From Alphaproteobacteria bacterium UBA3773 (GTDB lineage: Bacteria > Pseudomonadota > Alphaproteobacteria > RF32 > CAG-239), in contig DFFP01000003.1 in assembly GCA_002372275.1 (NCBI GenBank), forward strand, positions 17,851-81,850: DNA of 64,000 nucleotides. Reading direction: 5' to 3'. Of this stretch, positions 9,289-40,681 are shown in pieces (the first letter of the stretch is position 1; each line of letters opens with the position of its first letter). A program made the position numbers and the translations under genes. A model generated the notes under the pieces. The model worked only from the letters and a program-made list of their open reading frames with translations. It made no database searches and was not told where the DNA came from.

Positions 9289-12200
9289 CTACCAACTTGC
9301 AGGGGGTATAATCGTCGCACCGGTTCTTCTTTCTCCATTTACAATCTCAGCCATACGAGGCGTCATCTTATAAACGTAGTAATCTTCTGTATCAGTCGGA
9401 CTGCTGTCTAACGTACAATTGCTATCGCATTCTATGCTAGACTTATTATAAGGAAGAGGACCATTACATTCTGAAACAGGCTTCTTAATACGAAACCAAT
9501 AAGTGGTGCCATAATCAAGCTTGTGTGTAGCAGAAGAATACTTTTGTCCTTCTCCTACACAGTCACCATCCGCAGTACCAAGATCAGCACATTTATTAAC
9601 ATTGCAGTCCCCACTTGGATTTACAAAATTACCTTCCAAAGTAATTTGAAGTTCACCATCACAATTTGCGTTATCGCATACCTGTGCCTCAACACCAACC
9701 ACATTTGTGAATAGGAAGAAGTCATTTTTAACCGGCGTGCAGATATCACCCTCTAGCGTATATCCTTCATCGCAATCTGTAATGTCAGCACCATCACAAA
9801 TACCATGTGCCGGACAATCGTTACATGTGCCGCATGTTCCGTCTGCCACAAAATAGCCTGTTCCTGATCGGCAGTTAGGCCTCCAGCAACCATGTTCAAC
9901 AGATCCTCGATCAGAAGGCAAACACATCGAATTTTCACCAAAATACTTATTAGCTGTATCACATTCGCATTCGATTTCCGTACCTGAACCTACACGAGTA
10001 TTTCTGTCCGCACATCCGGTTTTTTTATAACAAGATGCTGATTCATCAACCCATGAGATTGATGCACTAATTTCTGAAGTTTTATAGTGGCTTCTATGAG
10101 CATCATCTTTGCCTATTTCATTATCTCCTGTACATGGATAAATACATCTCATATTTTTTCCTTTTTCTCCGTTAGTCTGTGTAGCATTTACACAGGACAC
10201 CTTTCGACAATATCCACAACCTGGTATCACAGCCGAAACAGTGGAATTATGATGAGTATAGGCTGCAAGACTATTAGCATGACTAGCGTAAGATTGACCA
10301 CTTATATATGGGGAATCACAGACGTATGCTCCATTATCGAGCGTCAATTCTTCACATTGCAAACTTGTACATCTTCCATCTATGTAATTTTCATTTTTCG
10401 GACAACAATGACCATTAGTTGCGTCATAACCATCATCACATGTGTATTTATAACAGTTTGTTCCTTCAACCGGAGTACAGACATAACCATCTCCAACCGG
10501 ATTATCATGACAAGTTGATGTTGAGTGATAGCTGTTTAAACCTTTATCACTTATATCACCATCTTGAAACTCACATGAGTTCATGTCTGCTGTTGTAATA
10601 TAAAAAGCCATCATATACGAACACTGATCTGAAGAGACATATGAAGTTATATGATACTGATTGGTCAGAATAAATTCATTATATTTATCACCATCATCTG
10701 TAACATTTATATGACCAGCGGGAGAATTTGCACATGCAAAGTCTTTCACTCGATAATATACAGGTCTATTGTTATTATTTGTCTCGGCTTCAATCCTTAT
10801 CGTATCGCCAATATAGGCAAACGCATTGTCTGCCGAAAAATACTGAGTCGAAGCGGAATGTTTACGGCAGTAAGAATTTTTCCCATTCCCCCATATATAT
10901 GCTCCGTTTACAAGAGTAGCACTATCCTTATCCATAGTCTTCTCATGTCCAACGGTTATATCTGTAATTGTAAAATCAGTAATGGTGCTGTCAGTCATAA
11001 CAGAAATACATACCGGTTTTTCAACGCACTTATAATTTTCACTATCCCACATATAATAATGTGTTCCGTTATTATCTGTTGGGTGATAACCAGTATTACA
11101 ACTTATTTTATAGCATTGTCCACTTGTATCCGAGGTTACTACCTCTTCTAAAAGATACATATCTGTTTGATATTCTAAATATCTTGTTGTAGTGCTTAAA
11201 ACATAACTGTCGCCACGCTGCGTACACTGCGCGAGTTCACAATATCCATCCGAATTAGGCAAATATCCTTCTTTGCAATCCAATCTATAGCACGTCAGAT
11301 CATAGTAGCCGCCGCAAGCACCGGTAGACCAACAACGCAGCCGTGATTTTACAGCTGTGCATTTATATCCTGTTGCTGTGCAATGAGGGTCATCTGCTGA
11401 ATTATAGTAGCTGTTAATTCCATCATTCTTTTGATCATTTTCACAAGATCTGCAATCATACATGGTATAACACTGACCATCAGATCCCGTTGCAGTTCCA
11501 TTACTATCTCTGACCTCAAAATAAGCGGGGCAACTTTTCTCATTCTCTAATTTTATTGTCGTTAGATATTGACCGGTTGTCGGTTTTGTATAATAACTTT
11601 TTCCAAATCCTTGGCCTATTTCGTCACAAGTTTTAAGCTCCATAGAAGCTTCAGCTTCAACACTTTCACCTTCCAATCCGAGACTTGCGACATATCTGCC
11701 AGTTATATCCGTTTGTATCGCTTCTTCTTTTTGCTGATTGTTTTTATCATAAGCATGCAAAGCATCTACCGATACGCCAGAAACAAAACTATTTTCCCCT
11801 GAACGATCTGAGCATATTCCTTCTTCGCTACACACTTTGAATGAAGCACTCACCAAAATATCAATTCCGACAGGATTTACATCTTGTGGCCCTTTATAAG
11901 TTGCAGTTCCACTATCTTCCTGTATTTGTCCGGATACAACCCTTGTTTCCGTTCCACTGGCATCAATAGATTGAATAACGCTACCCTTTTCTGCTCTTTG
12001 TGTCGAACCGCTTCCTGTTTCCGTTGTATGGTAAATTTGATATATCAAATCAAATTGACAAGGTGTACCGACATGTGACTCATCACAGCGTCCCAAAGTA
12101 GCATTAACTGTTGCATTTTTGATTTTGAAATTAAATTTCTTTGCTAATTGATAACAAGTCTGCCCTGTTTTCTTCGTGTCTTTAATCTCGGAACATATAA

Positions 12201-13296
12201 CATCATTTTTTGAACAATAACTGTCATTTTGATCTGTATGATAACTTAAAAACTGGTCATCAGCTAAACCGCCGTCTAAATCTTCACATGCTTTTGCGAC
12301 GCAGCGTCCGCATGTGTTATCTTGAACATTTATTGTATCAACAAAATTAAAATAATCTGAATTACATTCATTTCTTGGAACATAAGTTTTCTCACAATTT
12401 TCATCATAAACTTCCGCACATGTCTCGTAAGCTCTACAAGTCCAATACTCGCCAATTTGCGCATCATATATTTTCTGGCATGCTTTTCCTAATGCACAAC
12501 AATTTGCTTCCTCACATGAAGAATATCCTTGTCTGCAGTAACCACATTGATCATTACCAGAAAATTGGTTAATTGGTTGAAAATCACTCTCATCACAATC
12601 TGCTAAATTGGCAAGCGTATCATACCCCTCGGGGCAAGATTCCGGTTCACAGCTGAAAGAAGTTCCAATAATTGATGTAGAATTTTCCTCTCTTATAAAA
12701 GACACAGGAGAAGACATAAAATTCGAATAGACCGAGGCATTTGCTGTTTCTTTGAAACCGGTATTGCATTGCCATTGTGTATAAAAGGGTATACTTTGAC
12801 CGCAAGAGGCAATAGTGATCTGATCGTTAGCTGTAGCATTTTCAGGTAAGACAAAAATAGCTTTTTCGTATTCTTCCTTATACTTTTTCATAACATTAAC
12901 ATAATCAACCTCACATTTACCATAAGTACCTTTTTCGCATTCATCGGAGAGTTTAGCATAATCACCTTTGTTATATTCCGTCCATTTACAAATCTTATCT
13001 TGATTGCAATCGAAGCAGTTTAAACCATGGAAAGAAACGGGGACACACATTTTGCCATTTTCTGGCTTATCAATATCGCTCAACGCACCATCTTCACACT
13101 TATATTGTCTGCACCATATATAGCCCTTGTCGAACGGACATGTTATGTATCCGTCCACACAAGTAATATCCTTCTTAAGTTTATAACCTAAGCTTTCACA
13201 TTCCGGTTTAGGTACGCAATTTCCACCGCACCCTTCATCTGCTGCCATAGCAGCCGGCGCAAACAAAATACAAGCAATTAAGAAAATCTTTTTCAT
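9289..13296 (-). CDS. Giant secreted cysteine-rich protein of 1335 aa with EGF-like C-x-x-GY motifs. Possible adhesin or effector; hypothetical.
   Basis: Signal peptide MKKIFLIACILFAPAAMAADEGCGGNC. Very high Cys, Gly, Tyr, Asp, Asn, Thr and Ser content with recurring C-x(2-4)-C-x(2)-GY-x(n)-C spacing (CYKISCNTGYHPTDNNG..., CYRLDCKEGYLPNSDGYC, CYKYTCDDGYDATNGHCC). The coding region is more AT-rich than the flanking ribosomal genes. Confidence 0.8.
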   Translation of the reverse strand: MKKIFLIACILFAPAAMAADEGCGGNCVPKPECESLGYKLKKDITCVDGYITCPFDKGYIWCRQYKCEDGALSDIDKPENGKMCVPVSFHGLNCFDCNQDKICKWTEYNKGDYAKLSDECEKGTYGKCEVDYVNVMKKYKEEYEKAIFVLPENATANDQITIASCGQSIPFYTQWQCNTGFKETANASVYSNFMSSPVSFIREENSTSIIGTSFSCEPESCPEGYDTLANLADCDESDFQPINQFSGNDQCGYCRQGYSSCEEANCCALGKACQKIYDAQIGEYWTCRAYETCAEVYDENCEKTYVPRNECNSDYFNFVDTINVQDNTCGRCVAKACEDLDGGLADDQFLSYHTDQNDSYCSKNDVICSEIKDTKKTGQTCYQLAKKFNFKIKNATVNATLGRCDESHVGTPCQFDLIYQIYHTTETGSGSTQRAEKGSVIQSIDASGTETRVVSGQIQEDSGTATYKGPQDVNPVGIDILVSASFKVCSEEGICSDRSGENSFVSGVSVDALHAYDKNNQQKEEAIQTDITGRYVASLGLEGESVEAEASMELKTCDEIGQGFGKSYYTKPTTGQYLTTIKLENEKSCPAYFEVRDSNGTATGSDGQCYTMYDCRSCENDQKNDGINSYYNSADDPHCTATGYKCTAVKSRLRCWSTGACGGYYDLTCYRLDCKEGYLPNSDGYCELAQCTQRGDSYVLSTTTRYLEYQTDMYLLEEVVTSDTSGQCYKISCNTGYHPTDNNGTHYYMWDSENYKCVEKPVCISVMTDSTITDFTITDITVGHEKTMDKDSATLVNGAYIWGNGKNSYCRKHSASTQYFSADNAFAYIGDTIRIEAETNNNNRPVYYRVKDFACANSPAGHINVTDDGDKYNEFILTNQYHITSYVSSDQCSYMMAFYITTADMNSCEFQDGDISDKGLNSYHSTSTCHDNPVGDGYVCTPVEGTNCYKYTCDDGYDATNGHCCPKNENYIDGRCTSLQCEELTLDNGAYVCDSPYISGQSYASHANSLAAYTHHNSTVSAVIPGCGYCRKVSCVNATQTNGEKGKNMRCIYPCTGDNEIGKDDAHRSHYKTSEISASISWVDESASCYKKTGCADRNTRVGSGTEIECECDTANKYFGENSMCLPSDRGSVEHGCWRPNCRSGTGYFVADGTCGTCNDCPAHGICDGADITDCDEGYTLEGDICTPVKNDFFLFTNVVGVEAQVCDNANCDGELQITLEGNFVNPSGDCNVNKCADLGTADGDCVGEGQKYSSATHKLDYGTTYWFRIKKPVSECNGPLPYNKSSIECDSNCTLDSSPTDTEDYYVYKMTPRMAEIVNGERRTGATIIPPASW

Positions 13297-13420
13297 ATGG
13301 TTTCTCCGAAGAAAACAGAACTATAGTTATTTAGATTGTACATTTTTTTTTGTATCAAATCAACTCATTTTTTCGAGCATTTTTATGAATTATTTGTTAC
13401 AACAATGCTTTCCTTTTTCT

Positions 13421-13589
13421 GTCATCCCTCGAGGTGCGCGCAAGCGTCACCTCGTCAAGGGATCTAACCCTCAATCGCCCGCGCCTTGGCGCATAAAGGC
13501 GATTCTTCTTTTCTCTCACCCCTGGAATCGCAGATCGGCAAAGCCAACGCCGCAAGATGCAAGCTCAAGGGTCTAACAAAAACGTCATC
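13421..13589. repeat. Modular palindromic repeat, A+B modules
   Basis: gtcatccctcgaggtgcgcgcaagcgtcacctcgtcaagggatctaaccctcaatcgcccgcgccttggcgcataaaggcgattc followed by cccctggaatcgcagatcggcaaagccaacgccgcaagatgcaagctcaagggtctaacaaaaacgtcatc. Near-identical to 8985-9215. The ORF at 13385-13576 in the track lies inside this repeat. Confidence 0.8.
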
Positions 13590-13623: not shown

Positions 13624-13660
13624 AAAAAAACGCGCCCCTAAAATCAGAGCGCGCTTTTTT
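13624..13660. terminator. Bidirectional intrinsic terminator at the 3' end of rplO and the spc-operon block
   Basis: aaaaaaacgcgcc-cctaaaatcaga-gcgcgctttttt: a GC stem flanked by an A-run and a T-run. Confidence 0.55.
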
Positions 13661-13679: not shown

Positions 13680-14144
13680 TTATTTCACAAAATTCACTTT
13701 ACCGCCGGCTTTTTCAACAGCTTCAACAGCTGCTTTCGAAGCGGAGTTCACCGTGATATTCACTGCACTTGTAATGGCGCCGTTTGCAAGCAATCTGACA
13801 CCATCTAACTTTTTGGTGACCAAACGTGCAGCCAAAAGCGAATCGATTGTAATTTCGCTGGCATTTAACTTACCGGCATCAATTGCTTTTTGAATACGAT
13901 CCAAGTTAACCACGGCAAAGTGTGTTGAAAACGGATTTTTAAAACCGTGCTTCGGAAGCTGACGATAAATCGGCATCTGTCCGCCTTGAAAACCCTGAAC
14001 AGAAGCGCCGGAACGAGCCTTCTGACCCTTCTGACCGCGCGCTGAGGTTTTACCCTTACCGCTTCCGATACCGCGACCAACGCGAATGCGATTCTTTGTC
14101 GCGCCCGGATTATCATGTAATTCATTCAGTTTCATTTTTTTCAC
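13680..14144 (-). CDS. rplO: 50S ribosomal protein L15
   Basis: [43 protein letters not shown] is the L15 signature. Confidence 0.9.
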
Positions 14145-29364: not shown

Positions 29365-31248
29365 TTATTTTTTCTTCTTAAATTCAACAACCATCATTGT
29401 AATATCATCAAATTGCGGTGCTTTTTTAATGAATTTTTTAATGCATTGATGCACATATTCCAGCGTTTCGGATACTTTGACTTCTTTTTGGTTCAGCGCT
29501 TCAAGCAAGCGATCTTCCCCGAAAAATTTATTTTCTTTGGCCTGAGCCTCGGTCACACCGTCCGTATATAAAAACAACCTGTCATGTTCACTTAAGGTTA
29601 GCGTTTCCGTCTGAAAATCAAACCCTTCCATCACACCCAAAACAATATTTTTAGCCACATCAACATATTTATATACATTATTTGAGCGCACCAGCGGCGG
29701 ACAGTGTCCGGCGTTCACATATTCGATTATTCCCGTCTTAAAATCCAAAATACCGACAAACGCTGTCACAAACATCAAGGGCGAACTGGTGCTGCAAAGC
29801 GAATTATTTGCTTTTTCAATCGCCTGTTTTAAGGGGTATCCTGCCTGCAACATATTTTTAATTGCCGTTTTAGCCGACATCATATAAAGCGCAGCCGTAA
29901 TACCTTTCCCGCAAACGTCTGCCATCACAAGCCCCGCATGATTTTCATCCACCGGGAAAAAGTCATAAAAATCGCCTCCGACTTCTCGCGCCGGAATCAT
30001 CGAAGCATAAAGTTCAAAATAATCGGTTTTCGGAAAATCTTTCGGTAAAGCCGAATCCTGAATTGTTTTGGCAATTGCGAGTTCTGAAGCCAATTTTTCT
30101 TTTTCGGCCGAAATTTTTGCAAGCTCCGTTAAATGCGCTTTCATATCTGTTTTCATTTTATTAAAAGCGGCAGCCAATTTAGCCAATTCCGAAGGTTCCT
30201 TCAAATAAATTGTCCTGTCCAAATCTCCATCACTGATTTTTTGAGCAATATCGGTTAAGGTATCAATCGGTTGATTGATGTTTTTCTTTAAGACCTTATA
30301 CAAAACCGATACAATAACCATCATACTGACAAGCAAAACGCTGAGCAATACCACTAAATGATGAAACGCATTACTGAAAAGTTCCAAAAATGGAATATTG
30401 ACAATCAAAAACATTCCGTTACTGAGACGCTTGATATAAGGCACATACACTACCCCCTTATAATTAAAGCGAACGCCGTCTTTAAGCTCATCTGAATACC
30501 ACTTCATTTCTTTTAAGGATTGTCCCATCATTAAAGAATTATCAACGCCTTTTTCTGTCGTGGCAATCACGTAGTCATTCGTTTTATCCGCAAACAAAAC
30601 AAAGCTGTTCGGTGTCGGTTTAATGTTTAAGATAGATTTTAAAATCGTATCCAGTTCCCAATCCACCGTTGCCATACCGATTAAATCATCTCCGTTATAT
30701 ATTCCGGCGCCGATGGTCGTCATTAAAATACCGAGTTGCGTACTTTTATAAGGTCTTGTCCACGAAATTCTTTTACCGTTTTTTACGTCGTTTTTAATTT
30801 CTTTATACCAATTTTGGTCAAAATAATTAAAGGTGCCATCCACACAAGAATATAAAAGCTCAATTTTTCTGTTATCATCAAAAAGGGCATGTATGCAGTG
30901 ATTTTTATTTTTTTCATCTGCTTTATAGGGCAAAAAATAAATACCGTTTCCCATCGAATTCGGATAGTTTTTCAAAATACCTGTTACAAAAAACTCCGCA
31001 ATCTGCTGTATATTTCCTTTTTGATGATAAATTTCGCCCATCAAAGCTAAATCCAGTGCATTTTTTTCAAGCGCTGCAATTTCCGTATTAATTTGTTTTT
31101 CAAAAGCCGTAATTGAAGCATTATTGCTTGAAATAATGAGCTCTTTATCATGATAAAAAGCCATTGTTGCCGCACTGATAACCACAGCAGAGAGTGCAAT
31201 GAGCAATGCAAAAGTCACAAAAACAATTTTAGATTTAATGCTTTCCAC
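29365..31248 (-). CDS. Membrane sensor phosphatase: periplasmic Cache-like domain, HAMP, then a PP2C/SpoIIE (RsbU-like) phosphatase domain
   Basis: 627 aa. N-terminal TM, about 280-aa periplasmic region, second TM, HAMP (NINQPIDTLTDIAQKISDGDLDRTIYLKEPSELAKLAAAFNKM), then a SpoIIE domain (PAREVGGDFYDFF, GLVMADVCGKGI, LFLYTDGVTEA). Confidence 0.75.
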   Translation of the reverse strand: MESIKSKIVFVTFALLIALSAVVISAATMAFYHDKELIISSNNASITAFEKQINTEIAALEKNALDLALMGEIYHQKGNIQQIAEFFVTGILKNYPNSMGNGIYFLPYKADEKNKNHCIHALFDDNRKIELLYSCVDGTFNYFDQNWYKEIKNDVKNGKRISWTRPYKSTQLGILMTTIGAGIYNGDDLIGMATVDWELDTILKSILNIKPTPNSFVLFADKTNDYVIATTEKGVDNSLMMGQSLKEMKWYSDELKDGVRFNYKGVVYVPYIKRLSNGMFLIVNIPFLELFSNAFHHLVVLLSVLLVSMMVIVSVLYKVLKKNINQPIDTLTDIAQKISDGDLDRTIYLKEPSELAKLAAAFNKMKTDMKAHLTELAKISAEKEKLASELAIAKTIQDSALPKDFPKTDYFELYASMIPAREVGGDFYDFFPVDENHAGLVMADVCGKGITAALYMMSAKTAIKNMLQAGYPLKQAIEKANNSLCSTSSPLMFVTAFVGILDFKTGIIEYVNAGHCPPLVRSNNVYKYVDVAKNIVLGVMEGFDFQTETLTLSEHDRLFLYTDGVTEAQAKENKFFGEDRLLEALNQKEVKVSETLEYVHQCIKKFIKKAPQFDDITMMVVEFKKKK

Positions 31249-37727: not shown

Positions 37728-38363
37728 ATGACATCAAAATCAGCACATGATGAAGCAAATATAATAAGAAGCGGCTTATATGAAAACCAGATTGAGCCGA
37801 CAGACGCCTTAAGATTATCTGCTCGCATTGAAGGTGAAGAAACCGCCAAGCGTGATATTGTCTTTCATGCTTTGCAAAATAATTCTTCTCTTGAAATGCT
37901 TCACATGTCATTAGATATTGCCGCTACAATGAAATATCCGTCTCCTAAATTTCAAGTTTTATCTGAAATTTTAAAAAAATGCCCGAATAATTTTGAGCAA
38001 TCTGTGATTATTGATTACAAAGCCATAAAACAATCTGAGACCGTTGACGGGGCCTCTGCCGAAAAATCCGAAATCATTGAAACGATTTGCGGACGTGAAA
38101 ATAGGATGCCCATGTCCTTGTTTAATGAGATGGTTCATCTGTCTTCCACGCTTTACGATTCGGATTGTGTCCCCAATGCTTTTGCCGCACTTTCAAAACG
38201 TCCGGAATGTCAAATGAGTCACATTCAACATTTCACAGACATCGTCAATGGTCATGTTACAGATGAAAACAGAAGATCAAATTTATTAAAACAAATCACA
38301 AGCGCACCGATCTGCGTTCAAGCCCGTCAAAAGCATTCTGTTAAACGTTCAAATACGCTTTAA
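37728..38363 (+). CDS. Hypothetical protein
   Basis: 211-aa ORF with a plausible RBS (taggagaataaatATG). No recognisable motif. Confidence 0.4.
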   Translation: MTSKSAHDEANIIRSGLYENQIEPTDALRLSARIEGEETAKRDIVFHALQNNSSLEMLHMSLDIAATMKYPSPKFQVLSEILKKCPNNFEQSVIIDYKAIKQSETVDGASAEKSEIIETICGRENRMPMSLFNEMVHLSSTLYDSDCVPNAFAALSKRPECQMSHIQHFTDIVNGHVTDENRRSNLLKQITSAPICVQARQKHSVKRSNTL

Positions 38364-40681
38364 TCCGGTGCATCAATTTTAAGGGTCAAAGTCAAAATAT
38401 TTTTACCCTTTATATACCTGTAAGAAGCTTTATCAGACATTTGTTTAACCAAAAAGATGCCTAAGCCGCCTGTTGCTCTGTCTTCCAGCGGAGCCGAAAT
38501 GTCCGGATCTTTTCTTAAGAGCGGATTAAACTTTAAGCCGCTGTCTGTCAGTTTTAAAACGATTAATCCGCCTTTTTTGCGCAAACTGACATCCACATAT
38601 CCCGTACAACCGACATAAGCATAGCTGGCCACATTTGTAAATGACTCTTCTGCCACCAGATTAAGTCTCTGAATTGTTTTAAGCGGCAAAGAAAATGCCG
38701 TTGCTCCTTCATTTAACCACTTTGAAAAGAGACTATAATTTTCCGTGGTTGCCAAAAGCGTCACATGTCTTTCATCTGTTTTATTCTGCATTCCGTTATA
38801 TTTAAATGCGAGCATTGTCAAATCATCACTTTGGGCCGTATTTTGCACAAAATCCTCCACATTTTTCTTCACATCTTCAAGCAAGCGCCTTGATCCGCTT
38901 AATTTCAAATTATTTAAGCAATCGAGCAATCTTTCCTCCCCATAAAATTCTCTTTTTTCATTTAAGGCCTCTGTCAAACCGTCGGTATATAAAAAGAGCG
39001 TATCTCCTTTATTGAGCAAAGTTTCCGTCACATGATATTCAAAATCGTCCAGTGCACCCAAAGGCATATTAGAATCTGTTTTGAGGTATTCAAACTTACC
39101 ACCATTGCGACAAATAAGCGGCGGATTATGCCCGCAATTTATAAAAGCGATTTTTCCGGTTTCCAAATCCACAATACCGATAAAAGCCGTCACAAAAAAT
39201 CCGAATTGATTATTTTCCTGAATTTTATTATTGATTTTTGAAATCAAGCGACCATGACCTTCTTTATCATTGAACATATTTTTAATTGTTGTTTTAACGG
39301 TCATCATAAACAAAGCGGCCGGCACACCTTTGCCCGAAACATCAGCTACCAAAAACACAAATTGTTTAAGCGAAATAAAGAAAAAGTCATAAAAATCGCC
39401 TCCGATTTCTCTGGCCGGGTTCATCAAAGCAAAGATATTAAATTCCTTCACTTCCGGATAGAAAAATGACGGCAAATATGAGCTTTGAATTTTACTTGCC
39501 ACATCAAGTTCCGTTGCGATACGTTCTTTTTCTTTTGTGAAAGTATTGACGTGCTCAATATATTCTTTTAAGTTTTCACCCATCTGATTAAATGTTTTGG
39601 CAAGTTGTGCAAACTCTGCCGGTTTTTGCAAATGATTTTTAGCATCAATTTTTCCCTGTCCGAAGAGTTCTGCCGTTCGGGTCAATGACTTAATGGGTCT
39701 GTTCACATTTTTCTCCAAGATCAAATAAATTGCCAAAACCATCAAACAGATAGCCGGAAACAAAAAGAGAAACATCCAGAGCCTTATTCTTTTAATGGGA
39801 GCAAATAATTCTTCTTCGGGAATATTCATCACAAAGATCATCCCGTTTCCAAGTTCTTTCACATTTGTTAAAAACTGCTTGCCATTGTGTTTTAAAAATG
39901 AAATACCTTTCAAATCATCACGATACCACGAAACTTCTTTAAGAGATTGACCGAAAAGTTCATTTTGCTTCAAATTAGGATCCGTTGACCCGATCACAAA
40001 ATCGTTATTTTTGTCTGCCACCAGCGAAAAACTGTGCGGTGTCGGTTTCATACTCATGAGTGTTGCCACAATATCGCCGATTTTCCAGTCAATTGTTGAA
40101 AGCCCGACAAGTTTATCATTAAAGTATATACCGGCACCTACCGTTGTCATCAATGTTTCGGATCCCTGATTTTCATAGTATGGCGACGACCATTCAACTT
40201 TAATATTTTTTTCAAGGGAAGGTATAATTTCACGATACCATTTTTGCGTTAAATAATCATATTCTTCGCTTGCAAATTGATCATCAAGCAAAACCTTTCC
40301 CTCATCATTGTGATAAGCATAATAGCATGTTCTTTTTTGATTATCATAGACCGAGTATGCTTTAAACCACACACCGCCCCCCAAAAGCGCCGGAGATTTT
40401 TCAAAAAAATCTTGCACAACAGAGGCAATCATCGGTGCCGATCTGTCTGTTTTGTAGTGAAGTTCGCCGATCAGTGCCAAGTCGACAGCCTTATTTTCCA
40501 TCACATTAATGTCTTTTTCGATTTTGCGTGCAAAGGTCGAAATTTCAAAATCGCTTGCCGTAATTATTAATTTTTTCGCATTTTTATAATTAAGGTAACT
40601 GAAAAAAGAAACAATTCCGCATAAAAATATCAAAATAAAAACCAAGAGAACAACAATTTTCGATTTAACGGTTTTAAGCAT
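38360..40681 (-). CDS. Membrane sensor: Cache-like periplasmic domain, HAMP, SpoIIE/PP2C phosphatase, then a C-terminal RsbW-like GHKL (HATPase_c) serine-kinase/anti-sigma domain
   Basis: 773 aa, paralogous to 29365-31248 over the first roughly 600 residues (HAMP NVNRPIKSLTRTAELFGQGKIDAKNHLQKPAEFAQLAKTFNQM; SpoIIE PAREIGGDFYDFF, LVADVSGKGV, LFLYTDGLTEA). The extra C-terminal region (LVAEESFTNVASYAYVGCTGYVDVSL...TDSGLKFNPL...GGLGIFLVKQMSD) matches the HATPase_c_2 family of anti-sigma factors. Confidence 0.7.
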   Translation of the reverse strand: MLKTVKSKIVVLLVFILIFLCGIVSFFSYLNYKNAKKLIITASDFEISTFARKIEKDINVMENKAVDLALIGELHYKTDRSAPMIASVVQDFFEKSPALLGGGVWFKAYSVYDNQKRTCYYAYHNDEGKVLLDDQFASEEYDYLTQKWYREIIPSLEKNIKVEWSSPYYENQGSETLMTTVGAGIYFNDKLVGLSTIDWKIGDIVATLMSMKPTPHSFSLVADKNNDFVIGSTDPNLKQNELFGQSLKEVSWYRDDLKGISFLKHNGKQFLTNVKELGNGMIFVMNIPEEELFAPIKRIRLWMFLFLFPAICLMVLAIYLILEKNVNRPIKSLTRTAELFGQGKIDAKNHLQKPAEFAQLAKTFNQMGENLKEYIEHVNTFTKEKERIATELDVASKIQSSYLPSFFYPEVKEFNIFALMNPAREIGGDFYDFFFISLKQFVFLVADVSGKGVPAALFMMTVKTTIKNMFNDKEGHGRLISKINNKIQENNQFGFFVTAFIGIVDLETGKIAFINCGHNPPLICRNGGKFEYLKTDSNMPLGALDDFEYHVTETLLNKGDTLFLYTDGLTEALNEKREFYGEERLLDCLNNLKLSGSRRLLEDVKKNVEDFVQNTAQSDDLTMLAFKYNGMQNKTDERHVTLLATTENYSLFSKWLNEGATAFSLPLKTIQRLNLVAEESFTNVASYAYVGCTGYVDVSLRKKGGLIVLKLTDSGLKFNPLLRKDPDISAPLEDRATGGLGIFLVKQMSDKASYRYIKGKNILTLTLKIDAPD

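What the first reader, a model, noticed from the sequence alone, without database searches (positions are those of the whole stretch)
9289..13296. Giant Cys-rich protein has eukaryotic-like EGF-type C-x-x-GY spacing and atypical composition
Segments such as CYKISCNTGYHPTDNNGTHYYMWDSENYKCVEKPVC, CYRLDCKEGYLPNSDGYCELAQC and CYKYTCDDGYDATNGHCCPKNENYIDGRCTSLQC follow a C-x3-C-x2-GY-x(5-12)-C pattern reminiscent of EGF-like or other disulfide-knot modules. The protein is extremely Cys, Gly, Tyr, Asn and Asp rich, has a signal peptide, and is encoded by DNA more AT-rich than its surroundings. It could be a host-interaction surface protein, possibly acquired horizontally.
Basis: partly seen in the sequence, partly recalled or inferred. 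Interest (0 to 1): 0.55.

Follow-up and report, generated by a model that had tools for sequence, protein, structure and literature searches.

The report
Hypervariable cysteine-rich secreted bacterial protein
This gene encodes a 1,335-residue exported protein of an uncultured alphaproteobacterium with a conserved, previously undescribed N-terminal 'head' and a 1,079-residue tail found nowhere else; it is not a true EGF protein and looks like a strain-variable surface or adhesin-type protein.

Summary
The ORF, the quoted peptides, the signal peptide and the composition are real. The Cys motif is far from random, but its spacing is C-x4-C-x2-G-Y, not x3. EGF membership fails. Pfam and NCBIfam give no hit even at E<=10. 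There is no EGF_1 or EGF_2 pattern. hhalign against an EGF profile gives 3% probability. The confident AF2 model of the N-terminus has no significant PDB match.

The protein belongs to an undescribed family (136 representative clusters; the three members with a named source are uncultured Alphaproteobacteria). The family is defined by a ~170-residue N-terminal head of three disulfide beta-hairpin modules placed just after a Sec signal peptide. Residues 257-1335 are an orphan: nothing matches them among 5.8 billion protein clusters.

In a sister strain, ribosomal protein L15 is 100% identical and the gene's promoter and signal peptide are nearly identical. There, the locus encodes a 772-residue protein with a diverged head (dS 0.76, against 0.07 for rplO) and an unrelated tail. 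A rabbit ('Lapin') MAG holds five copies with 100% identical heads and different tails.

Best reading: an independently transcribed, exported, disulfide-stabilised variable surface or adhesin-like protein, whose tails are exchanged by recombination at the conserved head. Transfer from a eukaryote is not supported. The kind is known; the family and its head fold are new.

The parts
13624..13660 (-). Terminator-like GC hairpin plus T7 run just after the rplO stop codon (13680). It separates the Cys-rich gene from the ribosomal spc operon.
   Evidence: Read directly from the sequence. It is identical in sister-strain contig L004. The automatic scan did not list it, apparently because its loop is longer than the scan allows.
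13420..13589 (+). Upstream copy of a dispersed, two-hairpin intergenic repeat. It lies where similarity to the sister strain breaks down.
   Evidence: Direct-repeat families D1, D3, D4 and D6. Pattern search finds 3 copies in the window. RNA fold z-scores are -4.9 and -4.5. The window-to-L004 alignment loses similarity across this stretch.
13335..13363 (-). Sigma-70-like promoter TTGATT-17 nt-TACAAT, with an A9 tract (13343-13351) inside the spacer. It is conserved in three alleles of the locus.
   Evidence: Promoter scan. Alignment of window, L004 and L014. The tract is A9 in all four window/L001/L002/L004 assemblies.
13304..13307 (-). Shine-Dalgarno GGAG, 7 nt before the ATG.
   Evidence: Sequence reading. 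Conserved in L004 and L014.
13243..13296 (-). Sec signal peptide, aa 1-18 (MKKIFLIACILFAPAAMA, AxA cleavage site).
   Evidence: Translation. It is the only hydrophobic 19-mer in the protein. Equivalent signal peptides occur in all family members.
13111..13230 (-). Head module 1, aa 23-62: C-x3-C-x3-P-x-C-x2-LGY-x7-C-x2-GY-x2-CPFD-x2-Y-x-W-C. This is the most widespread module of the family.
   Evidence: Invariant columns in A2. Regex survey of 137 proteins. AF2 pLDDT is 66-96 across this stretch.
13006..13110 (-). Head module 2, aa 63-97: Y-x-C-x-DG ... C-x-x-V-x-[FY]-H-G-L-x-C-[FY]-x-C, a beta-hairpin.
   Evidence: A2 alignment. AF2 strands 82-89 and 92-100 with pLDDT around 86-91.
12727..13005 (-). 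Head module 3, aa 98-190: C-x-W-x3-N-x-G ... L-x3-C-x2-G-x-Y-x2-C ... P-x2-A ... C-G ... W-x-C-x2-G[FY]. This module recurs many times inside giant relatives.
   Evidence: A2 alignment. P0004, P0009 and P0014 show 10-16 matched stretches. AF2 pLDDT is 87-94 up to aa 180.
12529..12726 (-). Junction, aa 191-256, including the C-P-E-G-Y ... SG-x-x-x-CG-x-C module (aa 216-254). It is the last stretch alignable with relatives.
   Evidence: A1 alignment and BLASTP against P0002 and P0003.
9289..12528 (-). Orphan variable tail, aa 257-1335 plus the stop codon. It has 73 Cys, recurring C-x4-C-x2-GY hairpins, and low-Cys stretches (about aa 414-556 and 764-891).
   Evidence: No hit other than itself at E<=1 among 5.8e9 clusters. 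No significant similarity to the other 136 family proteins (best domain E about 0.06 on 4 bits). No copy elsewhere in the window. The DNA is 100% identical in two other assemblies.
11224..11292 (-).
11008..11115 (-).
10354..10455 (-).
   Evidence: It is the only tail stretch where the single-sequence AF2 block-mean pLDDT reached 57-66.
9739..9888 (-). Further motif copies: CWRPNCRSGTGY ... CPAHGIC ... DCDEGYTLEGDIC (aa 1137-1186). By eye it resembles the CP-x-HG-x-C ... C-x-x-GY module of relatives.
   Evidence: The comparison with P0018, P0005 and P0042 was by eye only.
8988..9244 (+). Downstream copy (about 1.5 units) of the same intergenic hairpin repeat, between the gene's stop codon and ygjP. 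Together with the upstream copy it brackets the gene (spacing 4295 bp).
   Evidence: The core is 98% identical to the sequence downstream of P0002 in L004.

Best explanation
What is shown. The gene is a separate transcription unit: the rplO terminator-like hairpin lies upstream, and the gene has its own conserved promoter and Shine-Dalgarno sequence. It encodes a Sec-exported protein. The mature chain has 94 cysteines and no membrane anchor.

Residues 19-190 form a conserved 'head' of three beta-hairpin modules rich in invariant cysteines. This head defines an undescribed protein family (the members with a named source are uncultured Alphaproteobacteria). Residues 257-1335 are a strain-specific tail with no relative anywhere. 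Between near-identical strains, and between paralogs within one genome, the promoter, signal peptide and head are kept while the tail is swapped wholesale.

What is inferred. The cysteines form disulfides after export, giving a rigid, protease-resistant rod of small beta-hairpin modules (C-x4-C-x2-G-Y) interspersed with low-Cys stretches of unknown fold. The protein is displayed on, or released from, the cell as a variable coat, adhesin or binding protein. The invariant head supplies the common step, such as docking to the envelope or to an export or assembly partner. The conserved head and upstream DNA also act as the homologous substrate for recombination that exchanges tails. Tail diversity would be driven by host immunity, phages or ligand diversity.

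It works like a variable surface protein family. It is not a member of the EGF family.
For: - Gene and export: ORF and signal peptide. Promoter, Shine-Dalgarno and terminator are conserved across alleles.
- Family: a profile of the head finds 136 representative clusters at E<=1e-3, 46 at <=1e-10, out of 1.84e9 proteins. The Cys, Gly and Tyr columns are invariant. Three members have a named source, both of them Alphaproteobacteria MAGs.
- Head structure: the AF2 model of the head has pLDDT 85.8.
- Novelty of the head: no Pfam, NCBIfam or PDB sequence match, and no significant fold match.
- Orphan tail.
- Sister strain L004: L15 is 151/151 identical and rplO DNA is 98% identical. The promoter and signal peptide are nearly identical. 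The head has dN 0.15, dS 0.76 and dN/dS 0.20, against rplO dS 0.068. The tail is unrelated and the lengths differ, 772 against 1335 aa.
- Paralogs: a 'Lapin' MAG has five copies with 100% identical heads over 180-270 aa. Four of them share about 300 nt of upstream DNA at 92-100% identity. Identity then falls to ungapped background level.
- Cargo in relatives: module 1 also heads other proteins. Some give weak, sub-threshold Lcl_C or phage tail-collar hits, which are ligand-binding domain types. Others are ~400-aa low-Cys proteins.
- Singleton clusters: each of the 10 family clusters checked has few members at 90% identity (nine have one member, one has three).
Against: - There is no direct evidence that the protein crosses the outer membrane. 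No autotransporter, lipobox, T9SS or LPXTG signal is present, and family members share no conserved C-terminus, by eye.
- No conserved neighbouring export or partner gene was seen in four other loci.
- Disulfide bonding is inferred. Cys-count parity across the family is 39 even to 38 odd, which is uninformative.
- The gene is 100% identical in three assemblies, so variation is between lineages, not rapid switching.
- The A9 promoter tract shows no length variation.
- The low dS of rplO may partly reflect codon bias; rpsE/rpmD DNA is 93% identical.
- MAG bins can mix strains, so some 'paralogs' could be alleles. L007 and L008 are almost identical.
- The tail could not be modelled (pLDDT 32.5).
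Confidence: 0.6

Rival explanations
1. It is a genuine EGF-domain (or Sushi or other eukaryotic Cys-knot) protein acquired from a eukaryotic host.
For: The C-x2-G-[YF]-x(n)-C hairpin is also the C-terminal half of the EGF and cEGF signatures. A few relatives give weak cEGF, EGF_Teneurin, EGF_DL_JAG or EGF_laminin hits (E 7e-4 to 6e-2, all below the cut-offs shown) and carry some EGF_1/EGF_2 pattern matches. The top, non-significant, Foldseek hits of the head are the 4xEGF proteins Pfs25 and Pvs25. GC3 is low.
Against: - The window protein hits 0 Pfam families at E<=10 and has 0 EGF_1/EGF_2 patterns.
- hhalign probability is 3.2%.
- The family head is known only from Alphaproteobacteria MAGs.
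- The promoter, signal peptide and locus are shared with sister strains.
- Codon usage is not an outlier.
Confidence: 0.04
2. It is a periplasmic or envelope structural protein, cross-linked by disulfides (functionally like the chlamydial cysteine-rich OmcB), and is not surface-exposed.
For: It has a Sec signal and very many cysteines. It has no recognisable outer-membrane translocation signal or anchor. A secreted thioredoxin-fold protein is encoded about 10 kb away, at 23360..23914.
Against: - Structural envelope proteins are normally conserved. Here the tail is unique to the strain and is replaced in a strain with identical L15.
- Copy number and length vary widely in the family, from 199 to 3041 aa among the sequences read, some of them probably fragments.
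- Relatives show weak adhesin-type domain hits (Lcl_C, Collar).
- There is no Pfam hit to chlamydial Cys-rich families.
Confidence: 0.12
3. It is a polymorphic toxin or effector: a conserved N-terminal trafficking domain with interchangeable C-terminal toxic tips.
For: The conserved-head, variable-tail architecture with tail swapping between strains is the hallmark of polymorphic toxin systems.
Against: - No toxin, Rhs, TPS, PT-HINT or pre-toxin domain is found in 49 members or in the window protein.
- The variable part is the whole ~1,080 aa, not a short tip.
- There is no small downstream immunity ORF. An intergenic repeat follows, then the convergently oriented ygjP.
- No partner secretion genes are adjacent.
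- The PADLOC and PHROGs libraries were not scanned.
Confidence: 0.08
4. It is a decaying or non-functional ORF (a lineage-specific orphan with no function), and the Cys motif is a relic.
For: The tail has no homolog anywhere and could not be modelled.
Against: - An uninterrupted 4,008-nt frame in 38.5% GC DNA is very unlikely by chance (my inference; no statistic was computed).
- The sequence is identical in three independent assemblies.
- The head is under purifying selection, dN/dS 0.20.
- The promoter and Shine-Dalgarno are conserved.
- The motif is strongly enriched in the tail as well.
Confidence: 0.03

Closest known systems
EGF-like / cEGF domains (Pfam EGF, EGF_CA, hEGF, cEGF; PROSITE EGF_1, EGF_2)
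   Same: Both are small disulfide-stapled beta-hairpin modules. The C-x2-G-[YF]-x(4-12)-C element is the same as the C5-C6 minor hairpin of EGF and cEGF. Modules are arranged in tandem in an extracellular protein. A few relatives give weak cEGF, teneurin-EGF or laminin-EGF hits.
   Different: The preceding spacing is C-x4-C, not C-x-C. There is no six-Cys EGF register. No HMM hit is found even at E<=10. There are 0 signature matches. Profile-profile probability is 3%. There is no significant structural match.
Giardia variant-specific surface proteins (VSPs) and ciliate immobilisation antigens (from my own knowledge)
   Same: Both are large, Cys-rich (7-12% Cys) exported proteins with many CxxC or CxxG motifs. 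Both form multigene families with one constant end and a highly variable remainder. If this organism lives in the gut, as inferred from one rabbit MAG name, the proposed logic would also be shared: a protease-resistant, antigenically variable coat.
   Different: There is no sequence relationship: no Pfam hit of any kind, including VSP. The constant part here is the N-terminal head, not a C-terminal transmembrane anchor, and no TM segment exists. The organism is a bacterium. No evidence exists for one-at-a-time expression switching.
Bacterial variable surface protein families with a conserved 5' end, e.g. Mycoplasma hyorhinis Vlp (poly-A tract in the promoter spacer) and Neisseria pilE/pilS or Opa (from my own knowledge)
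   Same: The promoter, signal peptide and first domain are conserved while the rest is variable. Recombination between copies is implied by 100% identical heads. A homopolymeric A9 tract lies inside the -35/-10 spacer.
   Different: It is not a lipoprotein or a pilin. There are no tandem-repeat tails. The A-tract length is invariant in 4 assemblies. No silent cassettes were seen in the 64-kb window. Tails are unrelated rather than mosaic variants.
Legionella Lcl adhesin / DUF1566 (Pfam Lcl_C) proteins
   Same: Several family members show sequence resembling this domain after the same head. P0015 gives a sub-threshold Lcl_C hit (E 8e-6, 26.6 bits against a cut-off of 34.9) and P0027 only E 0.095. 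The 1647-aa Lapin paralog has three DUF1566-like stretches by eye. This points to a binding or adhesin role for the family's cargo.
   Different: The window protein has no Lcl_C domain. Lcl itself lacks the Cys-rich head (my own knowledge).
Chlamydial cysteine-rich envelope protein OmcB (from my own knowledge)
   Same: Both are Sec-exported, Cys-rich proteins of a Gram-negative envelope that rely on disulfide bonds.
   Different: OmcB is conserved and structural. This protein is hypervariable, much larger, and shows no sequence similarity.

Membership tests
EGF-like domain (Pfam EGF/EGF_CA/hEGF/cEGF) | A significant match to an EGF-type profile HMM. | tested here: not met
   hmmscan against Pfam-A gives 0 families at E<=10 for the window protein. 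Among 49 relatives only a few sub-threshold hits appear, best E 6.8e-4.
EGF-like domain | Signature C-x-C-x2-[GP]-[FYW]-x(4,8)-C (EGF_2) or C-x-C-x5-G-x2-C (EGF_1). The patterns were written from memory. | tested here: not met
   0 matches of either pattern in the window protein. A few matches occur in P0011, P0013, P0014, P0016, P0025, P0033 and a few others (P0032, P0051, P0105). The recurrent motif here is C-x4-C-x2-G[YFW].
EGF-like domain | The EGF fold with C1-C3, C2-C4, C5-C6 disulfides. | tested here: inconclusive
EGF-like domain | Profile-profile similarity to EGF. | tested here: not met
Sushi/CCP, TNFR, furin-like, Giardia VSP and other curated Cys-rich families | A match to the family HMM. 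| tested here: not met
   No Pfam-A family of any kind at E<=10. No NCBIfam hit. No PDB sequence hit apart from one E=0.57 chance hit.
Giardia VSP-type coat protein | A conserved C-terminal transmembrane anchor and cytoplasmic tail. | tested here: not met
   There is no hydrophobic segment apart from the signal peptide. By eye, family members share no conserved C-terminus.
New 'CPFD-head' family (defined in this report) | A signal peptide followed within about 5 residues by module 1: C..C...P.C..LGY...C..GY..CPFD..Y.WC. | tested here: met
   The window protein carries it at aa 23-62. The same pattern is found by regex in about half of the 137 proteins retrieved. These columns are invariant in A2. 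The window protein was part of the query profile, so its own score is circular; the independent members are the test.
New 'CPFD-head' family | Modules 2 and 3 follow (Y.C.DG...C..V.[FY]HGL.C[FY].C; then C.W...N.G...L...C..G.Y..C...P..A...C.CG....W.C..G[FY]). | tested here: met
   A2 alignment of 20 members, 32-76% identical to the window protein over 190 aa.
Phase-variable surface genes with a promoter homopolymer (Vlp-like) | A homopolymeric tract in the promoter spacer whose length varies between cells or strains. | tested here: inconclusive
   The A9 tract is present (13343-13351), but it is A9 in all four assemblies. L014 has A8 plus substitutions. Read-level heterogeneity cannot be tested with these tools.
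Polymorphic toxin systems | A recognisable toxin tip, pre-toxin or trafficking domain, and an adjacent immunity gene. | tested here: not met
   No such Pfam domain in the window protein or in 49 relatives. No small ORF lies downstream before ygjP.
Lcl_C / DUF1566 adhesins | An Lcl C-terminal domain. | tested here: not met
   It is absent from the window protein. It appears only as weak, sub-threshold hits in relatives: P0015 at E 8e-6 and 26.6 bits (cut-off 34.9), P0027 at E 0.095.
Outer-membrane or surface display systems (autotransporter, lipoprotein, T9SS CTD, LPXTG) | The corresponding sorting signal. | tested here: not met
   No Pfam hit. 'LIAC' at aa 6-9 is too close to the N-terminus to be a lipobox and is absent from most relatives. 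The C-terminus ...ATIIPPASW is not conserved in the family.

The most novel reading that the evidence does not exclude
Some uncultured (probably gut) Alphaproteobacteria may carry a bacterial counterpart of the protozoan Cys-rich variant-surface-protein strategy. In this reading, the multigene family consists of giant, disulfide-armoured coat or adhesin proteins. Identical promoter-plus-head cassettes act both as a dedicated docking or export module with a new fold and as recombination handles. These handles shuffle or replace entirely unrelated tails between paralogs and strains. The same recombination may also have broken the ancestral rplO-secY junction, where family members now sit on both sides.
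Probability: 0.25. Interest if true: 0.8.

Novelty: new variant of a known kind. Interest (0 to 1): 0.55.

Why it matters
If the reading is right, this is an uncharacterised family of giant extracellular proteins in a poorly known group of uncultured (probably gut) Alphaproteobacteria.

- The N-terminal head domain is absent from Pfam, NCBIfam and the PDB.
- The tails are true orphans that differ completely between strains whose L15 protein is identical.
- Such loci are prime candidates for strain-level host, IgA or phage interaction determinants, and for strain typing in metagenomes.
- They also explain assembly breaks: three of the five copies in one MAG run off contig ends.
- The finding is a caution as well. 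A C-x2-GY hairpin motif can mimic an 'EGF-like' look without EGF homology.

Tried and rejected
- Pfam, NCBIfam and PDB sequence searches of the protein gave nothing. NCBIfam on eight relatives also gave nothing useful.
- Self-BLAST for internal repeats found none.
- A single-sequence AF2 model of the tail was useless (pLDDT 32.5), so no fold search was run on it.
It was repeated with A1. The window's own genome was not among the 5 loci returned (the tool's patterns should match its head), so it is probably not one of the species representatives.
- Cys-parity test across the family: 39 even against 38 odd, uninformative because many entries are fragments.
- Search for a conserved neighbouring secretion or partner gene in L003, L010, L012 and L013 found no common neighbour.
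- Search for paralogs or silent cassettes in the window found none.
- Rfam scan for the flanking repeat found no family.
- A-tract length variation: none.
- Three literature searches found no paper on this family.
- HGT by composition was rejected as weak: GC3 z is -1.7 and the codon distance is unexceptional.
- The + strand ORFs inside the gene (10087..10518, 10651..11151) were judged by eye to be antisense artefacts of the long ORF; they were not tested.

Full report
**1. Observation**

The minus-strand ORF 9289..13296 is real: ATG start, 1335 codons.

The protein has 95 Cys (7.1%) and is rich in T, G, S, D, Y, E and N. The N-terminus MKKIFLIACILFAPAAMA|AD is a typical Sec/SPase I signal. 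It is the only hydrophobic 19-residue stretch in the protein, so there is no membrane anchor.

The motif is actually C-x4-C-x2-G-Y, not x3, and it is highly non-random:
- C-x4-C-x2-G[YFW]: 4 copies against 0.06 expected in 5000 shuffles.
- C-x2-G[YFW]: 8 against 0.8.
- C[YW][KR]xxC: 4 against 0.04.
- C-x2-C is not enriched.

The AT-richness is only local. Gene GC is 0.385, the 4-kb flanks are 0.437 and 0.420, and the window mean is 0.387. GC3 is 0.269, with z = -1.7, third lowest of 48 ORFs. Codon-usage distance is unremarkable.

**2. Is it EGF-like?**

- Pfam-A and NCBIfam return no family at all, even at E<=10. PDB sequences return nothing.
- The PROSITE-type EGF_1 and EGF_2 patterns, written from memory, occur 0 times.
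Only nine columns align, on 'C-x-x-G-Y'.
- Among 49 relatives, a handful give sub-threshold hits to cEGF, EGF_Teneurin, EGF_DL_JAG and EGF_laminin.

The resemblance is therefore real at the level of one hairpin motif. That motif matches the C5-x2-G-[FY]-...-C6 minor hairpin of EGF and cEGF. Membership of the EGF family was tested and not met.

**3. What it belongs to**

The word-index search found only the protein itself and two relatives. An exhaustive profile search with the aligned N-termini found more: 136 representative clusters at E<=1e-3, 46 at <=1e-10.

A 20-sequence alignment (A2) defines a 'head' placed directly after the signal peptide:
- Module 1 (aa 23-62): C..C...P.C..LGY...C..GY..CPFD..Y.WC.
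- Module 2 (aa 63-97): a Y.C.DG...C..V.[FY]HGL.C[FY].C hairpin.
- Module 3 (aa 98-190): C.W...N.G...L...C..G.Y..C...P..A...C.CG....W.C..G[FY].

Module 3 is reiterated 10-16 times in giant relatives of 1700-3000 aa. Module 1 alone also heads other proteins:
- ~400-aa low-Cys proteins.
- Proteins with weak Lcl_C/DUF1566-like similarity.
- One protein with a weak phage tail-collar hit.

Three members (P0003, P0078, P0013) have a named source, two 'uncultured Alphaproteobacteria' MAGs; P0013 is annotated as a hypothetical protein. Of the 10 clusters checked, nine are singletons at 90% identity and one has three members.

**4. The tail is an orphan**

- Residues 257-1335 hit nothing but themselves at E<=1 among 5.8 billion clusters.
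- They show no significant similarity to the other 136 family proteins.
- They match nothing else in the window.
- There are no internal repeats.
- Single-sequence AF2 failed (pLDDT 32.5).
- The gene is nevertheless 100% identical in two further assemblies from other samples.

**5. The locus is hypervariable between near-identical strains**

Contig L004 carries S5 (3' end), L30 and L15, followed by a 772-aa family member, P0002. The comparison with the window gives:
- rplO DNA is 98% identical, L15 is 151/151 identical, and rpsE/rpmD DNA is 93% identical.
- The rplO terminator-like hairpin, and about 115 nt holding the promoter (TTGATT-17-TACAAT), the Shine-Dalgarno and the signal peptide, are almost identical.
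- The same promoter architecture is seen in a third allele, L014, of 653 aa.
- The head is much more diverged than the flank: dN 0.154, dS 0.757, dN/dS 0.20, against dS 0.068 for rplO.
- After about aa 256 the two proteins are unrelated.

The head is therefore under purifying selection. However, the gene body has been replaced by a diverged allele or paralog rather than inherited together with rplO.

A 'Lapin' (rabbit) MAG shows the same pattern within one genome bin. Five copies on different contigs share 100% identical heads over 180-270 aa. Four share about 300 nt of nearly identical (92-100%) upstream DNA. Identity then drops abruptly to background. Three of the five run off contig ends. 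One caveat applies: a MAG bin may mix strains, and L007 and L008 are almost identical.

**6. Flanks**

The gene is bracketed by direct copies, 4295 bp apart, of a ~100-nt two-hairpin repeat. A third copy lies at about 58.7 kb. Its fold z-score is about -4.5 to -4.9, and it has no Rfam family. The upstream copy lies exactly where similarity to L004 is lost. The core of the downstream copy is 98% identical to the sequence downstream of P0002. The repeats may mark the recombination boundaries, but that is an inference.

The spc ribosomal operon ends at rplO, and secY does not follow. In the Lapin MAG two family members, P0003 and P0078, sit divergently right next to secY.

**7. Mechanism**

Shown:
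- A separate transcription unit.
- Sec export.
- A conserved head with a confident but unmatched fold.
- An orphan tail.
- Head-anchored replacement of tails between strains and paralogs.

Inferred:
- Disulfide formation after export gives a rigid, protease-resistant chain of hairpin modules.
- The protein is exposed or released as a variable coat or adhesin.
- The head provides the invariant docking or export step.
- The head and its upstream DNA are the substrate for homologous recombination.

Arguments against:
- No outer-membrane targeting signal and no conserved partner gene was found.
- No short-term variation was seen: the gene is identical in three assemblies and the A9 tract has constant length.

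**8. Rivals**

- EGF acquired from a eukaryote: rejected on the tests in section 2.
- OmcB-like periplasmic cross-linked protein: conflicts with the hypervariability.
- Polymorphic toxin: no toxin or immunity features.
- Non-functional ORF: conflicts with purifying selection on the head, the conserved promoter, the intact 4-kb frame and the enriched motifs.

**9. Novelty and score**

The kind is known: a variable exported protein family with a conserved N-terminus. The head family and its fold are undescribed in Pfam, NCBIfam and the PDB. The scale of tail replacement is also unusual for bacteria; the nearest functional analogy is the Cys-rich VSP coat of Giardia.

I rate it a new variant of a known kind, with interest 0.55.

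Noticed in passing
window 8988-9244, 13420-13589, about 58720-58830: A dispersed ~100-nt intergenic repeat with two GC-rich hairpins (core CTGTCATCCCTCGAGGTGCGC..GCGTCACCTCGTCAAGGGATCTAACC..ATCGCCCGCGCCTTGGCGCATAAAGGCGATTCTTC). All copies have the same orientation. The fold z-score is about -4.5 to -4.9, and there is no Rfam family. Two copies bracket the Cys-rich gene.
   Followed up: partly
window 13343-13351 (- strand A9): A homopolymeric A9 tract lies inside the 17-nt spacer of the gene's promoter-like site, as in phase-variable surface genes. It is the same length in four assemblies; the more distant allele L014 has A8.
   Followed up: partly
window 13680-14144 and downstream; L003 6778-12721: The spc ribosomal operon stops after rplO and secY does not follow. 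In the Lapin MAG, two members of the same Cys-head family (P0003 and P0078) lie directly upstream of secY-adk-rpsM. Family members therefore sit on both sides of the ancestral rplO|secY junction in different lineages.
   Followed up: partly
window 8913-8970; L004 1305-1459 and 4189-4230: A second short repeat type (GTCACCCTCTC...CCTCAAGGGGGAGGG) is shared between the window's ygjP-proximal intergenic region and both flanks of P0002 in the sister strain.
   Followed up: no
window 1697-4186 (-): An 829-aa protein with a signal-peptide-like N-terminus and a C-terminal Trypsin_2 protease domain. It has 4.1% Cys, including CxxC pairs and a Pro/Glu-rich linker. It may be another exported, disulfide-dependent protein.
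   Followed up: partly
window 23360-23914 (-): A thioredoxin-fold protein with a signal-peptide-like N-terminus (AhpC-TSA/Redoxin hits, reminiscent of TlpA/DsbE by my own reading) about 10 kb from the Cys-rich gene. It may be relevant to periplasmic thiol-disulfide chemistry.
   Followed up: no
window 28039-28980 (-): A BspA-type leucine-rich-repeat (LRR_5) protein, probably exported, with the lowest GC3 in the window (0.243). It may be another candidate surface or host-interaction gene. A similar LRR_5 gene lies near P0013 in L010.
   Followed up: no
window 29365-31248 (-) and 38360-40681 (-): Two paralogous sensor phosphatases (PDC/Cache sensor, HAMP, SpoIIE). The second also has an HATPase_c_2 domain.
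   Followed up: no
window 24160-27033 (+): A three-gene cluster: a VWA-domain protein, a 252-aa ORF that was not scanned, and a Ser/Thr protein kinase-like protein.
   Followed up: no
window 1-27000 versus 27001-64000: There is a step in base composition. GC is 0.42 in the first 27 kb (recF, dnaB, ribosomal operons) and 0.362 in the rest. The second part includes several large ORFs without any Pfam match (for example 55657-58596, 53913-55481, 51752-53008).
   Followed up: no
L006 8001-12944: A 1647-aa paralog in the Lapin MAG combines the identical head, about ten copies of a ~45-aa C-P-x-GY...GW.W...SG...CGKC repeat, and three stretches that by eye resemble C-terminal DUF1566/Lcl_C domains (this protein was not scanned). 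It looks like a clear adhesin-like architecture for the family.
   Followed up: partly
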